Shown: one piece after another, positions 6,450-61,771 of the stretch | Position numbering within the stretch: position 1 is the stretch's first letter | How the letters are laid out: each line of letters begins with the position of its first letter | IMG/VR virus record: IMGVR_UViG_2595698869_000001 | Location: 43,214-107,213 of that record | Length of the DNA stretch: 64,000 bases | Strand: one strand, 5' to 3' | DNA from: a virus | Taxonomy: Duplodnaviria; Heunggongvirae; Uroviricota; Caudoviricetes | The notes under the pieces: generated by a model | Told to the model about the DNA's origin: nothing | Seen by the model: the letters and a program-made list of their open reading frames with translations, nothing else | Databases searched by the model: none | Position numbers and translations under genes: made by a program

Positions 6450-6536
6450 GGATGTGTCACCTCAGTGGCGAGAGGACCGGGCTCTTAATCCGGCAGCGAA
6501 AGCTCATCGTGGGTTCGAGTCCCACCACATCCTCCA
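6450..6536 (+). tRNA. tRNA-Lys(CTT) with long variable arm
   Basis: CCGGG-CTCTTAA-TCCGG; extra arm AGC-GAAA-GCT; CCA. Confidence 0.85.
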
Positions 6537-6541
6537 ATAAT

Positions 6542-6631
6542 GCACGAGTGACCCGAGCGGCGAAGGGCGTCGACTTTTAATCGACTGGGCGTCCAGCCTC
6601 ACCGAGGGTTCGAGTCCCTCCTCGTGCTCCA
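6542..6631 (+). tRNA. tRNA-Lys(TTT) with long variable arm
   Basis: GTCGA-CTTTTAA-TCGAC; ~18-nt variable region; CCA. Confidence 0.85.
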
Positions 6632-8453: not shown

Positions 8454-8538
8454 GGATGCTTAAAGCTGGAGGGCTCCAGCCGGGGACTGTAAATCCCCTC
8501 TCTTCGGAGGAGTGGTTCGATCCCACAAGCATCCACCA
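8454..8538 (+). tRNA. tRNA-Tyr(GTA)
   Basis: GGGGA-CTGTAAA-TCCCC, long variable arm, ACCA. Confidence 0.88.
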
Positions 8539-8543
8539 ACCAC

Positions 8544-59323: not shown

Positions 59324-59412
59324 TGGAGCTTCGGGAGGGACTCGAACCCTCATAGGTGTTCCCACCAGCAGAGATTTGCAATCCCGCGCCTAACCTCTCA
59401 GTCCACCGAAGC
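59324..59412 (-). tRNA. tRNA-Cys(GCA) with long variable arm
   Basis: GCTTCGG/CCGAAGC acceptor, loop TTGCAAA, GGTG-GGAA-CACC extra arm, U73, CCA. Confidence 0.85.
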
Positions 59413-59639: not shown

Positions 59640-60510
59640 GATGGGCTGAGACTACACCCATCAGCAATCCCGCTTCGAGGATTATTCCCCAGGTGCGACC
59701 CCAGGTATTCCCTCGACGTCCACCAGACCCCTTGCGGTAGTCCAGTCCGAGATCATCGCCGCCGTTCTTGCGCACCCCGAAGGGATTGCGGGTCTGGCGT
59801 TTGACCCATCATGGCGAACTACTCGACAGTTCCTTCCCCGCTGGGCTTGCGACCCACTCACCGGCGCTAACCGGCTGACGAAGCTCTTCCTATCGACACC
59901 TCGCGGGCTTGCGACCCTTGAGATGACTCCGTTACCCGAAGGCCGGAGCATTTGGCGACTTACGTCCGCCACTGGACCAGTCTTTGCGTTTTTCATCGAA
60001 GCGGGGATTGAACCCGCGACCGACAGCTTAAGAGGCTGTTGCACTACCACTGTGCTATTCGCAAACCCACCAAGACGTGCTGGTCCAGTTGTTCCCAGAG
60101 CTTTTGACCCCGGAAATGCAACACGCCTCATATCTTTCGCCTTGCGGGCTACTCGACTGCTCTTCAGGACTCCGTCTCCCCCAACCTTTCGGCCAGGATG
60201 CCCAGCACCCCTCGAACTGAAGCAAAGCTCTTCACCGCGAAGTGTCGAACCCTGCAACCCAAACGGTTATCCGTACTCCCTAGACACGCTTGCACGGGAT
60301 AGTCCGCTTGCGACGGACTGGCGGTTAAAGCCTCGGAGTTACCCCGGCCCCGCCTTGTCTCCCACGGTCTTCAGGTCTATCCCCTTTTGCAAGAGGCGGC
60401 CAGCTTCCCAGCCCGGACCCGTCGGCTTCCTCTGTCCTCTTGCGAGGTCGGGCGGCCTATGGGAGACCGTCCCTGTCACCCCGTCGCCGGGGCTTTCGTC
60501 AGAAGCGACG
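59640..60510 (-). ncRNA. ~870-nt GOLLD-like large structured RNA
   Basis: TTGACG(60544-60539)-N15-GCTAGAAC promoter, at least seven GCAA/GAAA-capped hairpins on the minus strand, long-range helices, embedded tRNA body, terminator at 59597-59635. Confidence 0.65.
59994..60064 (-). tRNA. tRNA-Lys(CTT)-like body embedded in the large RNA, no CCA
   Basis: D arm GCAC-AGTGGTA-GTGC, ACAGC-CTCTTAA-GCTGT, GCGGG-TTCAATC-CCCGC; acceptor only 4 bp, continuing into a longer stem. Confidence 0.7.
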
Positions 60511-60631
60511 ATGACGTTCTAGCGACAGCCCACGTCGTCGTCAACGACTTTTTCCGTCTCGATGTCGAATTTTTTCGACAGTCGTGGATGACGACAGTGC
60601 TTGACATTCTCGTAAGCCCATGCTAGGTGTC

Positions 60632-61003
60632 GGAAATCGTTGTAATTCGGACAACGGAACTGGCGGCAAGACAGGGGTGCGAATCCCCTCGCCTCCACCA
60701 TCGACGCCCGGCGCTGGGAGTACGCGACTCCTGGGCAGGGAGTGTTACCCTGGCGGGCTGCGGCCCGAGCCAAAGGTAGCCGGGCGTCGTTGATGGGGGC
60801 GACTAGCTTTCGATTGGCGCTCGGGACTGAAAGACGCAACGGTGGGTGACCTCCACATCGGCTTGCCGGTGATCGGGTCAGGCAACAGTAAATGTCGCCG
60901 ACAATGACAACGACGTCGTGGCTTTCGCCTCGGCTCGTGAAGCCATCGCCGCCTAATAAGCGGTAGAGGAGCCCGCCGGGAGCTTGGCAACAGAATCCCG
61001 GCA
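60632..61003 (+). ncRNA. ssrA: Two-piece (circularly permuted) tmRNA
   Basis: Acceptor piece ends GGGGTGCGAATCCCCTCGCCTCCACCA (60700). Coding piece starts GGGGGCG (60795), giving a 7-bp stem with G3-U70. Tag frame 60897-60956 reads ADNDNDVVAFASAREAIAA-stop. Promoter TTGACA(60601)-N15-GCTAGG. Confidence 0.9.
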
Positions 61004-61137
61004 ACCCCCTTTCGCAGGCGGGAACACCAACAGGCGATCTGTCGGGCGACCGATTTCCGATCCGTGTTCCCGTCTTCGAAAGGTGGTCAGGCCTACCCTC
61101 TTGGTGTGCTATCCAAGGGTCTGGCCACTTTACAGAA

Positions 61138-61216
61138 CGCGGGGTAGAGGAGTCCGGTTGTCCTCGTCTGGCTCATAACCAGGAGATCGTGGGTTCAAAT
61201 CCCACTCCCGCTCCCA
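61138..61216 (+). tRNA. tRNA-fMet(CAT)
   Basis: Unpaired C1, CGCGGGG start, loop CTCATAA, T arm GGTTCAAATCC, CCA. Confidence 0.8.
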
Positions 61217-61495
61217 ATGCGAACGCCGGCTGTTGAGAACGACGGCGTGACAAGCTCGGAGAGAACGAGCACTCCAGTCCGGGGTATGAGGCCGGACTAG
61301 CGGACGCCGTAGCGATTGCAGGCGTGACACCCGGAGATAGCGGGACCGGCTTTCCGAGCCGCATGCTCGGCGCGTAAGACCGCAGGCCTCGGCCATCGGG
61401 CAGTGTCAGGGGATGAGGCTAGTCCTCGGCTAACCACCTAGCGGTGAAGCTAGGGCATGCGGTTCGGAAAGCCGGGTTCGCGGTTCGTCCGCTAC
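61217..61495 (+). ncRNA. Structured RNA with two C4-like modules and a 20-23 bp stem
   Basis: ACGCC...GGCGTGACA-stem-GGAGA module at 61223 and 61304; helix 61346-61365/61456-61475; helix 61298-61306/61486-61494. Confidence 0.5.
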
Positions 61496-61496
61496 G

Positions 61497-61575
61497 AGAT
61501 GGAGATGTCGCCGGTTCGAGTCCGGCAGGTCCCCCAAAAGGAGGCCTTAGCTCAGTCGGTAGAGCGCTCCTATCC
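61497..61575 (+). ncRNA. Circularly permuted tRNA mimic (YrlA/Y RNA-like topology)
   Basis: Order is stem, variable loop, T arm (GCCGG-TTCGAGT-CCGGC), closed acceptor hairpin, TA, D arm (GCTC-AGTCGGTA-GAGC), stem. Confidence 0.7.
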
Positions 61576-61582
61576 CACCTTT

Positions 61583-61667
61583 GGTACGGTGGCTCGACAG
61601 GTAAGGCATCGGCCTCATAAGCCGAGGGTTCGTCCCAATCCTGGTTCAAATCCAGGTCGTACCTCCA
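61583..61667 (+). tRNA. tRNA-Met/Ile2(CAT) with long variable region
   Basis: GGTACGG/TCGTACC acceptor, TCGGC-CTCATAA-GCCGA, T arm, T-CCA. Confidence 0.8.
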
Positions 61668-61771
61668 AATCGACGCTTGACCCCAGGCCGCAGGCTGCTA
61701 AGCTTCCCCGGTCGGGATCGTCCCGCGTCCTTTCCAAGGTCAAGCCCCCGGAGCTTCGCTTCGGGGGCTTT

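What the first reader, a model, noticed from the sequence alone, without database searches (positions are those of the whole stretch)
61497..61575. Circularly permuted tRNA mimic (T arm before D arm, acceptor closed by a loop)
Seen: GATGGAG, ATGTC, a perfect T arm, AGGTCCCC-CAAAA-GGAGGCCT, TA, a perfect D arm, G, CTCCTATC; the ends fall where the anticodon loop would be. Known: this topology defines bacterial YrlA Y RNAs, which partner Ro60/Rsr and often sit near RtcB. Here the long Ro-binding stem is not evident. Inference: a minimal Y-like RNA, an anticodon-less decoy for tRNA-binding defence proteins, or a permuted tRNA needing ligation.
Basis: partly seen in the sequence, partly recalled or inferred. 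Interest (0 to 1): 0.82.

Follow-up and report, generated by a model that had tools for sequence, protein, structure and literature searches.

The report
Orphan Y-RNA-like tRNA mimic in phage
A phiCbK-type Caulobacter phage carries, just ahead of one of its tRNA genes, a small RNA shaped like the body of a tRNA; it matches the tRNA-like half of bacterial Y RNAs, but neither the phage nor its host has Ro60, the protein Y RNAs normally partner.

Summary
Window 61498-61574 reads closing-stem strand, V loop, T arm, 7-bp acceptor-like stem closed by a loop, UA, D arm, G, closing-stem strand. Taken alone, its minimum-energy fold is exactly this permuted cloverleaf.

The window comes from a 221.8-kb phiCbK-like Caulobacter phage. 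The element lies in a + strand RNA operon: permuted tmRNA, tRNA-fMet, a conserved ~265-nt RNA, the element, tRNA-Met, then a terminator-like hairpin.

It is a YrlA-type tRNA-like domain. Rfam YrlA matches only model positions 23-85 (29.7 bits, cut-off 69). Its nearest sequence relatives are YrlA-like RNAs immediately 5' of Ro60/TROVE genes in CcrColossus, Brevundimonas phage Kikimora and Xanthomonas phage Tabio.

Neither this phage nor the Caulobacter control genome has Ro60, and the Ro-binding stem and motif are missing. It therefore fails YrlA membership.

Syntenic stem-less units lie 5' of tRNA-Met in Colossusvirus and Brevundimonas jumbo phages, which do encode Ro60. Across four lineages, 15 of 20 base pairs show compensatory changes.

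The unit is absent from Poindextervirus phages and replaced in Magneto and Swift, so it is dispensable.

Verdict: a Ro60-orphaned Y-RNA tRNA-like module, a new variant of a known kind. Its function is unproven. A permuted tRNA gene or a chance tRNA junction is unlikely.

The parts
61498..61504 (+). Closing ('anticodon-stem-like') helix, 5' strand GAUGGAG
   Evidence: Pairs with 61567-61574, leaving one U bulged. It forms in the minimum-energy fold.
61505..61509 (+). Variable-loop equivalent AUGUC. C61509 can form the Levitt pair with G61555 (G15:C48).
   Evidence: Sequence. It aligns to 'GUu' of the YrlA consensus.
61510..61526 (+). T arm GCCGG-UUCGAGU-CCGGC
   Evidence: The same 17 nt occur in the syntenic CcrColossus and CcrPW units.
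61527..61547 (+). Acceptor-like stem closed by a loop: AGGUCCC / CCAAAAG / GAGGCCU. It is 7 bp long with one G-U and one A-C mismatch. No NCCA follows it.
   Evidence: All 28 tRNAs in the window with a normal acceptor end encode NCCA.
61548..61566 (+). U8-A9 equivalents, D arm GCUC-AGUCGGUA-GAGC (with G18 G19), and the G26 equivalent
61567..61574 (+). Closing helix, 3' strand CUCC(U)AUC
61575..61582 (+). Pyrimidine-rich tail CCACCUUU, which doubles as the 5' leader of the next tRNA. RNase P cleavage at 61582/61583 would set the element's 3' end (inferred).
   Evidence: tRNA-Met starts at 61583. Comparable 9-12-nt tails are present in the relatives.
61480..61497 (+). Start of the segment that Poindextervirus phages lack: mini hairpin GCGG-UUCGU-CCGC plus the linker UACGA. 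It may be a relic of a second (upstream) unit.
   Evidence: Alignment A1 and the fold. The relic reading is inference.
61583..61667 (+). Downstream elongator-type tRNA(CAU) with a long variable arm. It anchors the synteny for all related units.
61217..61479 (+). Upstream conserved ~265-nt unassigned RNA, ending in a 27-bp hairpin (61342-61479). It is an independent unit, because it is present in phages that lack the element.

Best explanation
The element is the tRNA-like ('effector') half of a YrlA-type bacterial/phage Y RNA, standing alone. It has no Ro60-binding stem and no Ro60 gene in the phage or the host.

Shown:
- It lies in the + strand RNA operon (tmRNA, tRNA-fMet, 265-nt RNA, element, tRNA-Met, terminator-like hairpin).
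- It folds as a tRNA body: a 7-bp acceptor-like stem stacked on a 5-bp T arm, a D arm, and an elbow-competent G18G19 and T loop.
- Its acceptor end is sealed by a loop, and a 7-bp bulged helix stands where the anticodon arm would be.

Inferred:
- RNase P cleavage at the 5' end of the next tRNA releases its 3' end.
- The L-shaped fold makes it a substrate or ligand for host proteins that read the tRNA elbow, such as RNase P, TruB and DusA. Chen et al. 2014 showed DusA and TruB modification for Salmonella YrlA and RNase P cleavage for M. smegmatis YrlA.

My proposed mechanism: it acts as a free tRNA-mimic module that binds or titrates a host factor normally engaged by the Y-RNA effector domain. 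By analogy with Ro60-Y RNA-PNPase complexes, PNPase is my first guess, and a tRNA-directed host nuclease is the second.

Evolutionary reading: the phage subfamily ancestrally had Ro60 plus several Y RNAs. The small-genome phiCbK lineage lost Ro60 but kept this one module.

I put 0.75 on 'YrlA-derived structured RNA' and about 0.5 on 'still functional in this phage'. The confidence given for this explanation as a whole (0.55) reflects both.
For: - Rfam YrlA matches 61502-61569 at model positions 23-85, 29.7 bits. Two of the three YrlA-like RNAs next to the CcrColossus Ro60 gene score about the same (30.5 and 29.9 bits).
- The best local alignment of the element is to a CcrColossus Ro60-adjacent YrlA-like RNA (55 of 63 identical). 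In a BLAST against 50,697 phage records, the Xanthomonas phage Tabio hit (89% of the element covered) falls on one of two YrlA-like RNAs (52 and 37 bits) directly 5' of a TROVE/vWA_Ro60 protein. The other unannotated hits checked were a tandem-tRNA junction (VspSw_1) and a site with no YrlA match (MrMagoo).
- The minimum-energy fold of the isolated element is the permuted cloverleaf.
- From the sequence, the canonical tRNA tertiary partners are all available: U8/A14, A9 with U12-A23, G15/C48, G18G19 with the T loop, C13-G22 with G46, G26/A44 and T54/A58.
- Units of the same architecture lie directly 5' of the same tRNA-Met in CcrColossus, CcrPW and seven Brevundimonas jumbo phages. Across four lineages, 15 of 20 base pairs carry compensatory double changes and 95% of cells are paired. 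Their isolated sequences also fold into the cloverleaf.
- The three of those relatives that were searched (CcrColossus, Kabachok, Kikimora) encode TROVE proteins, about 3-4 kb from the units and on the same strand in the two Brevundimonas phages.
- CcrColossus Ro60 and Y RNA-like RNAs are already in the literature (PMC12135203, citing PMC4201824).
Against: - No Ro60/TROVE is found in the phage by Pfam or tblastn or in the Caulobacter control genome.
- There is no GNCGAA(N)G motif, and YrlA model positions 1-22 and 86-114 are unmatched.
- The score is far below Rfam's cut-off, and tandem tRNA junctions reach 25 bits with the same model.
- The element is dispensable. It is absent from Rogue, BL10, BL57 and RBC63, and replaced by an unrelated 145 nt in Magneto and Swift.
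- Within its genus the whole RNA island, spacers included, is 99-100% identical, so the element's zero substitutions do not show specific selection.
- Its sequence resembles Ro60-adjacent YrlAs more than the syntenic units of relatives, so orthology with those units is not proven.
- A model built only from the Brevundimonas units scores it at just 12 bits.
- There are no expression data.
Confidence: 0.55

Rival explanations
1. Non-functional vestige. It is a leftover of a Y RNA, or of a tandem duplication of one tRNA gene followed by loss of the outer halves. It persists because the RNA island evolves slowly or recombines as cassettes.
For: - The Ro60 partner and the Ro-binding half are gone.
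- Close relatives do without the element or have swapped it.
- Within-genus identity carries no information.
- The acceptor has an A-C mismatch, and the sequence reads C-CAA where a tRNA gene would read NCCA. That is one base away from CCA followed by a 3-nt spacer, as at a tRNA-tRNA junction.
Against: - All four helices and the tertiary-contact nucleotides are intact.
- The closing helix, at 7 bp, is better than in relatives.
- Units at the same site in three other lineages keep the fold through compensatory changes, which argues that the site hosts selected RNAs.
- Nine distinct phages carry it without a single change, while the neighbouring CDS is 96% identical.
Confidence: 0.28
2. Cis-acting processing or stability element of the polycistronic precursor. 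A tRNA-shaped punctuation mark recruits RNase P or other tRNA enzymes. This would define the 3' end of the upstream 265-nt RNA, the 5' end of the unusual long-arm tRNA-Met, or both. After cleavage in the closing loop, it could leave a tRNA-like cap that protects an end from exonucleases.
For: - It always abuts the tRNA-Met, with a 9-12-nt pyrimidine-rich leader.
- The acceptor-like stem plus T arm equals the 12-bp stack that RNase P measures (established knowledge of RNase P).
- M. smegmatis YrlA is cleaved by RNase P in its acceptor loop and then receives CCA (PMC4201824).
- The Brevundimonas units carry a 20-22-nt insert in the closure, like the excised segment of permuted tmRNA.
Against: - Poindextervirus phages mature the same tRNA-Met with no such unit.
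- No conserved CCA or discriminator follows the acceptor 3' strand.
- Kikimora has the units but no 265-nt RNA to protect.
Confidence: 0.12
3. A true circularly permuted tRNA gene. Its ends would be joined, for example by the phage RtcB, and its acceptor loop excised, giving a working tRNA.
For: - The order is 3' half before 5' half, with the break in the anticodon region.
- The phage encodes RtcB.
- In this phage the 5' half is followed by AUCCCAC, which could be read as an anticodon loop.
Against: - That loop-like sequence is not conserved. The tails are GAUUUCUUUUU, GCAUCACCUCAC and ACCUAUUUU in relatives.
- No partner half-loop precedes the 3' half.
- There is no CCA, whereas all 28 tRNAs in the window with a normal acceptor end encode NCCA.
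- RtcB is present whether or not the unit is.
- No bulge-helix-bulge motif or splicing endonuclease was looked for or found.
Confidence: 0.02
4. Chance juxtaposition: the 3' half of one decayed tRNA next to the 5' half of an unrelated one.
For: - Tandem tRNA junctions mimic YrlA in covariance-model searches. Chen et al. also warn of this.
- BLAST of the element also hits tRNA-tRNA junctions in Bacillus and enterobacterial phages.
Against: - The halves are mutually complementary in both the acceptor and the closing stem. Only 0.7% of unrelated tRNA half-pairs reach this, and none of the 18 adjacent pairs does.
- No decayed outer halves are visible on either side.
- Relatives have the whole unit or none.
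Confidence: 0.03

Closest known systems
YrlA (Y RNA-like A; Rfam RF02553) of Salmonella and Mycobacterium smegmatis, and of phages such as CcrColossus and Xanthomonas phage Tabio
   Same: The same permuted order (V, T arm, loop-closed acceptor-like stem, UA, D arm). The T and D arm sequences are near-consensus, and the tRNA tertiary-contact nucleotides are kept. The Rfam YrlA model aligns its positions 23-85 to the element. The closest sequence relatives are YrlA-like RNAs next to phage Ro60 genes.
   Different: - It lacks the long 5'/3' stem and the GNCGAA(N)G motif thought to bind Ro60.
- There is no Ro60 gene in the phage or host.
- It is embedded in a tRNA/tmRNA operon 8 nt from a tRNA.
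- Its acceptor-like stem is a full 7 bp, against about 5-6 bp in the YrlA consensus.
- It scores 29.7 bits against a cut-off of 69.
Thermus phage phiLo Yrl1/Yrl2 with phage Ro60 (PMC12135203)
   Same: Phage-encoded Y-RNA-like RNAs. The proposal that they engage host PNPase is the source of my functional analogy.
   Different: Those RNAs are defined by a 5'-3' stem with a CGAA bulge that binds the phage Ro60. In the paper's text they are not described as tRNA-like. Here the Ro-binding part and Ro60 itself are absent.
tRNA-like domain of two-piece (permuted) tmRNA of alphaproteobacteria, including the phage's own tmRNA at 60608-61047
   Same: The gene order is acceptor 3' strand, then an intervening loop, then acceptor 5' strand. 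RNase P processing is expected, and the two lie in the same operon.
   Different: The element has a real D stem. It has no tag reading frame or pseudoknots, no G3-U70, and no CCA. The tmRNA models match only 60638-60956.
Circularly permuted tRNA genes of Cyanidioschyzon merolae and some archaea (from my own knowledge)
   Same: The 3' half precedes the 5' half, and the acceptor ends are joined by a linker.
   Different: Those genes encode a complete anticodon loop and mature into functional tRNAs through a circular intermediate. Here there is no conserved anticodon loop.
Stem-less tRNA-like units 5' of tRNA-Met in CcrColossus, CcrPW and Brevundimonas jumbo phages
   Same: Identical position and architecture. 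The T arm is identical to that of CcrColossus and CcrPW. All have a pyrimidine-rich tail leading into tRNA-Met.
   Different: - They come in pairs joined by a GAUA(A/C)A linker, or GAAACA in Marchewka and Bambus.
- Their closing stems are 4-5 bp.
- Their acceptor closures range from a 9-10-nt loop to a 20-22-nt insert.
- The three of those phages that were searched (CcrColossus, Kabachok, Kikimora) encode Ro60.
- Outside the T arm they are much less similar in sequence to the element than canonical YrlAs are.

Membership tests
YrlA / bacterial Y RNA (Rfam RF02553; Chen et al. 2014) | tRNA-like domain in permuted order (T arm, closed acceptor-like stem, D arm) with tRNA tertiary-contact nucleotides | tested here: met
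   The cmscan alignment covers model positions 23-85. The minimum-energy fold gives the same structure. The contact nucleotides were read from the sequence.
YrlA / bacterial Y RNA (Rfam RF02553; Chen et al. 2014) | Score at or above Rfam's gathering threshold (69 bits) | tested here: not met
   29.7 bits. Phage YrlA-like RNAs next to Ro60 genes also fall below it, at 30-52 bits.
YrlA / bacterial Y RNA (Rfam RF02553; Chen et al. 2014) | Ro60-binding module: a helix formed by the 5' and 3' ends, with the GNCGAA(N)G motif near the 5' end | tested here: not met
   Model positions 1-22 and 86-114 are unmatched. There is no motif in the 366-nt spacer. Only 8 nt separate the closing helix from the next tRNA.
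YrlA / bacterial Y RNA (Rfam RF02553; Chen et al. 2014) | Encoded within about 4 kb of a Ro60/TROVE gene, on the same strand | tested here: not met
   There is no TROVE gene in the 221,828-bp genome by Pfam or by tblastn with three phage Ro60 proteins (best E = 0.28). The Caulobacter vibrioides control also has none.
YrlA / bacterial Y RNA (Rfam RF02553; Chen et al. 2014) | Bound by Ro60/Rsr; modified by TruB and DusA | not testable with these tools
   Needs immunoprecipitation and modification mapping.
Circularly permuted tRNA gene | The two halves reconstitute a 7-nt anticodon loop (U33, purine 37), and a CCA or discriminator context follows the acceptor 3' strand | tested here: not met
   The tails after the closing stem are unrelated in the four lineages, and no NCCA follows the acceptor 3' strand.
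Two-piece (permuted) tmRNA | Tag reading frame and pseudoknots after the tRNA-like domain; a match to the tmRNA models | tested here: not met
   ARAGORN and Rfam tmRNA_permuted match only 60608-61047. Nothing matches at 61480-61582.
Tandem tRNA junction (search artefact) | The T arm and D arm belong to two complete neighbouring tRNA genes | tested here: not met
   No tRNA call overlaps 61217-61582. The halves are mutually complementary, unlike real junctions.

The most novel reading that the evidence does not exclude
The tRNA-like domain of Y RNAs is an autonomous effector that works without Ro60. A virulent phage of a Ro60-less host keeps just this half as a free tRNA mimic. It would bind or titrate a host factor, such as PNPase or the degradosome, or a tRNA-targeting defence nuclease, during infection. 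Related jumbo phages deploy the same module both free (in the tRNA-Met operon) and tethered to their own Ro60.
Probability: 0.3. Interest if true: 0.8.

Novelty: new variant of a known kind. Interest (0 to 1): 0.55.

Why it matters
The role of the tRNA-like half of bacterial Y RNAs has been open since it was described in 2014. Protection from nucleases, recruitment of PNPase and interaction with tRNA-binding proteins have all been proposed.

Here nature has made the separation-of-function construct. The tRNA-like half stands alone in a genetically tractable pair (phiCbK-type phage and Caulobacter crescentus) in which neither phage nor host has Ro60. There are natural deletion variants (Rogue, BL10), natural replacement variants (Magneto, Swift), and Ro60-bearing cousins (CcrColossus).

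If the module has a phenotype or a partner there, the function of the Y-RNA effector domain becomes directly testable. If it has none, this is a clean example of a ncRNA half outliving its protein partner.

It is also a practical warning. YrlA-like domains in phage genomes are being annotated as tRNAs: the annotated tRNA-Gln in CcrColossus and tRNA-Ser in Kikimora overlap YrlA matches.

Tried and rejected
- **Rfam at gathering threshold.** It gave nothing at the site. Only the E-value mode showed the partial YrlA match.
- **The YrlA score as evidence on its own.** Rejected, because tRNA-tRNA junctions in the same genome score 25 bits and the model matches in 13 of 14 control genomes.
- **Scans of public collections.** I scanned IMG/VR with the tRNA-Met anchor, with the core of the 265-nt RNA and with a T-arm-to-tRNA-Met pattern, and scanned metagenome contigs once with the 265-nt RNA core. 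These returned only the known isolates or nothing, so no extra diversity was gained.
- **MAFFT alignment of the units across lineages.** It was out of register. I used an explicit parse instead, which is fitted to the proposed structure.
- **Covariance model R1, built from the Brevundimonas units alone.** It found the element only with filters off, at 12 bits, which is below the tandem-junction hits at 22-23 bits. It therefore cannot serve as a detector. One of those hits revealed a tRNA-Tyr that ARAGORN had missed.
- **RtcB co-occurrence.** RtcB is in every relative tested, with or without the element, so it carries no information.
- **Within-genus conservation as a test of selection.** Rejected, because the spacers are equally invariant.
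- **The exact vertebrate Ro-contact motif GGUCCGA, found 5' of unit 1 in Kabachok, Domovoi and Marchewka.** By eye it forms the 3' strand of a local hairpin, and it is absent from Kikimora, CcrColossus and this phage. I did not count it as evidence.
- **Expression data.** A literature search found no paper that looked like a phiCbK infection transcriptome (titles and abstracts only). The supplementary tables of Chen et al. 2014 are not held.

Full report
**1. What is there**

The window is G000:C1:43214-107213 of a complete 221,828-bp virus record. Over the 1.5 kb around the finding it is 98.5% identical to Caulobacter phage phiCbK.

The finding lies in an RNA-only stretch. ARAGORN and Rfam place these features on the + strand:
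- a permuted tmRNA at 60608-61047
- tRNA-fMet at 61138-61216
- a tRNA(CAU) with a long variable arm at 61583-61667

A terminator-like hairpin follows at 61754-61766. GOLLD RNA lies on the - strand at 59643-60129. Between the two tRNA-Met genes are 366 nt. The first ~265 nt form a conserved, unassigned RNA that ends in a 27-bp hairpin (61342-61479). The rest is the finding.

Read directly, 61498-61574 is:
- GAUGGAG
- AUGUC
- GCCGG-UUCGAGU-CCGGC
- AGGUCCC-CCAAAAG-GAGGCCU
- UA
- GCUC-AGUCGGUA-GAGC
- G
- CUCC(U)AUC

It is followed by CCACCUUU and then G+1 of the tRNA. Folded alone, the 79-nt RNA adopts exactly this permuted cloverleaf as its minimum-energy structure (-28.7 kcal/mol). The z-score against shuffles (-1.6) is unremarkable.

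In tRNA numbering, every classical tertiary partner is available: U8/A14, A9 with U12-A23, G15/C48, G18G19 with the T loop, C13-G22 with G46, G26/A44 and T54/A58. This is read from the sequence only.

**2. Is it more than a tRNA-tRNA junction?**

This was the main risk. Rfam YrlA matches 61502-61569 at 29.7 bits, model positions 23-85 of 114. The same model gives 25 bits at an ordinary junction between two tRNA-Pro genes of this phage, and it matches in 13 of 14 control genomes. Chen et al. 2014 warn of the same artefact.

Three observations separate the element from a junction:
- No tRNA is called on either flank.
- All 28 tRNAs in the window with a normal acceptor end encode NCCA. The element has C-CAA.
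- Its two halves are complementary to each other. The acceptor pairs at 6 of 7 positions and the closing stem at 4 of 5 in the tRNA register. Among 812 ordered combinations of the 3' half of one phage tRNA with the 5' half of another, only 6 (0.7%) do as well. None of the 18 truly adjacent pairs does.

**3. Relatives**

In the phage collection the element is present and identical in these records:
- phiCbK
- Ccr32 and Ccr34
- S2L
- Ccr10, Ccr2 and Ccr29
- RBC57

It is absent from Rogue, BL10, BL57, BL64, RBC63, RBC8 and RBC11, where the tRNA-Met follows the 265-nt RNA directly. In Magneto and Swift an unrelated 145-nt sequence takes its place. It is therefore an accessory cassette.

Within the genus the whole RNA island, spacers included, is 99-100% identical, while the neighbouring CDS is 96% identical. 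The element's zero substitutions therefore say little about selection on it specifically.

More distant relatives are informative. Directly 5' of the homologous tRNA-Met, each of these phages carries a unit of the same architecture:
- CcrColossus and CcrPW
- Brevundimonas jumbo phages Kabachok, Domovoi, Papperlapapp, Marchewka, Bambus, Kikimora and Gurke

The architecture is:
- a 4-bp closing stem
- a 4-nt V loop
- a T arm
- a 7-9-bp closed acceptor-like stem
- UA or UG
- a D arm
- G
- the closing-stem 3' strand
- a 9-12-nt tail

The helices differ in sequence between the four lineages. For example:
- Closing stem: GGAG/CUCC, CGGG/UCCG, CAGG/CCUG and CGGA/UCCG.
- D stem: GCUC/GAGC, GAGG/CCUC and GUGU/GCAC.
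- Acceptor closure: a 7-nt loop, a 9-10-nt loop, or a 20-22-nt insert containing a hairpin.

In an explicit parse, 15 of 20 base pairs carry compensatory double changes and 95% of cells are paired. The Kabachok and Kikimora units fold into the cloverleaf on their own.

There are caveats. The parse is fitted to the structure, and only four lineages are available. Outside the T arm, which is identical to that of CcrColossus and CcrPW, the element resembles these units little. These phages also carry a second, more degenerate unit just upstream, joined by a GAUA(A/C)A linker, or GAAACA in Marchewka and Bambus.

**4. The Ro60 connection**

The phage has no TROVE domain by Pfam and none by tblastn with three phage Ro60 proteins (best E = 0.28). 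The Caulobacter vibrioides control genome has none either.

CcrColossus, Kabachok and Kikimora do encode TROVE plus Ro60-type vWA proteins of 456-469 aa. Immediately 5' of those genes, on the same strand, lie one to three YrlA-like RNAs, some matching the full length of the model:
- CcrColossus: 42.3, 30.5 and 29.9 bits
- Kikimora: 38.8 and 31.3 bits
- Kabachok: 27.1 bits

The CcrColossus Ro60 and its Y RNA-like RNAs are already published (PMC12135203, citing Chen et al. 2014, PMC4201824).

The element's best local alignment is to one of these CcrColossus RNAs (55 of 63 identical). A BLAST of the element alone also finds Xanthomonas phage Tabio. There the hit is one of two YrlA-like RNAs (52.1 and 37.3 bits) directly 5' of a TROVE/vWA_Ro60 protein.

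In this phage, the site where relatives hold the YrlA-Ro60 cassette, after the HTH gene, is a ~0.5-kb gap with no YrlA signal. RtcB is present in this phage, 32 kb away, and in all five relatives tested, with or without the element. RtcB also does not appear in the Caulobacter control.

**5. Interpretation**

The element is the tRNA-like half of a YrlA-type Y RNA without the Ro60-binding half, in a phage-host pair that lacks Ro60.

It fails YrlA membership on three tested criteria: the score, the Ro-binding module, and linkage to a Ro60 gene. It meets the structural criterion for the tRNA-like domain.

The most economical history is this. The Dolichocephalovirinae ancestor had Ro60 and several Y RNAs, including stem-less units in the tRNA-Met operon. 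The smaller phiCbK-type genomes lost Ro60, and one module survives in part of the genus. A later acquisition by recombination at a cassette hot spot cannot be excluded.

How it works is inferred, not shown:
- It would be transcribed with the operon.
- RNase P cleavage at 61582/61583 would set its 3' end.
- It would fold into an L shape and be recognised by elbow-reading tRNA enzymes. Chen et al. showed DusA and TruB modification for Salmonella YrlA and RNase P cleavage for M. smegmatis YrlA.

I propose that it acts as a free tRNA mimic that engages whatever the Y-RNA effector domain normally engages. PNPase is the best-documented candidate, from the Ro60-Y RNA-PNPase complexes, including a phage one (PMC12135203).

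The main rival is that it is a vestige. A cis-acting processing role is possible. A permuted tRNA gene or a chance junction is unlikely, for the reasons given in sections 2 and 3.

**6. Novelty**

Y RNAs with tRNA-like domains, including in phages and in CcrColossus, are known. I found no description of the following in the papers searched:
- a Ro60-less, stem-less YrlA-type module in phiCbK-type phages
- the conserved tRNA-Met-linked units in the Ro60-bearing cousins

I rate it a new variant of a known kind, of moderate interest. The interest comes mainly from a natural separation of the two halves of a Y RNA in a tractable system.

Noticed in passing
window 8455-8541 (+): An unlisted type II tRNA-Tyr(GUA), with a long variable arm and a terminal ACCA, lies just 5' of tRNA-Phe. 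ARAGORN and the Rfam gathering search did not report it. It surfaced as a tandem-junction hit of my model R1.
   Followed up: partly
window 61583-61667, 6450-6536, 6542-6631 (+), 59324-59412 (-): Several phage tRNAs for amino acids that normally use short-arm tRNAs are 85-90 nt long: CAU 'Met', two Lys and Cys. The CAU tRNA has an 11-nt insertion in the variable region in the Rfam alignment and U at position 73. Its true identity (Met, Ile2 or something else) is open.
   Followed up: no
window 61217-61481 (+): A conserved ~265-nt unassigned RNA lies between tRNA-fMet and the element. Its core (GCGUGACA...GGAGAGAACG.GCAC...CCGGG.UAUGAG) is kept from Shapirovirus to Colossusvirus. The apex of its 27-bp hairpin is swapped like a cassette between phiCbK-type and Ccr10-type phages (76% identical, against 100% in the flanks). 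It has no Rfam match.
   Followed up: partly
L002:965-1109 (Magneto), L018:965-1109 (Swift): An unrelated 145-nt structured sequence occupies exactly the element's slot. It shares only a short ACGAGA/CGAGAGG stretch at its 5' end with the element and with CcrColossus YrlA-like RNAs. It may be a different Y-like RNA.
   Followed up: no
L015:1700-1776, L024:1333-1410, L026:1333-1407: A second, more degenerate tRNA-like unit sits upstream of the syntenic unit in CcrColossus, CcrPW and the Brevundimonas jumbo phages. It has a T arm, a short closed stem in the Brevundimonas phages, a mini D arm, and a covarying 5-7-bp closing stem. The two units are joined by a GAUA(A/C)A linker, or GAAACA in Marchewka and Bambus.
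   Followed up: partly
L032:5218-5285 (CcrColossus 'tRNA-Gln'), L033:5413-5487 (Kikimora 'tRNA-Ser'): These annotated tRNAs, just 5' of the TROVE/Ro60 genes, overlap YrlA-like matches (30.5 and 38.8 bits). They are probably Y-RNA tRNA-like domains mis-called as tRNAs.
   Followed up: partly
window 59643-60129 (-): A GOLLD RNA (171 bits) has a tRNA-Lys(CUU) embedded at 59992-60065. GOLLD also lies next to the tmRNA/tRNA islands of Brevundimonas phage Bajun, Vibrio phage VspSw_1 and mycobacteriophage MrMagoo. This suggests a recurring GOLLD-tmRNA-tRNA neighbourhood in phages.
   Followed up: no
L017:1982-2115 (Brevundimonas phage Bajun): The 134-nt spacer between the two tRNA-Met genes has no canonical T loop. 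It does contain CCGG-UGCAACU-CCGG followed by a closed 5-bp stem, possibly a further diverged unit.
   Followed up: no
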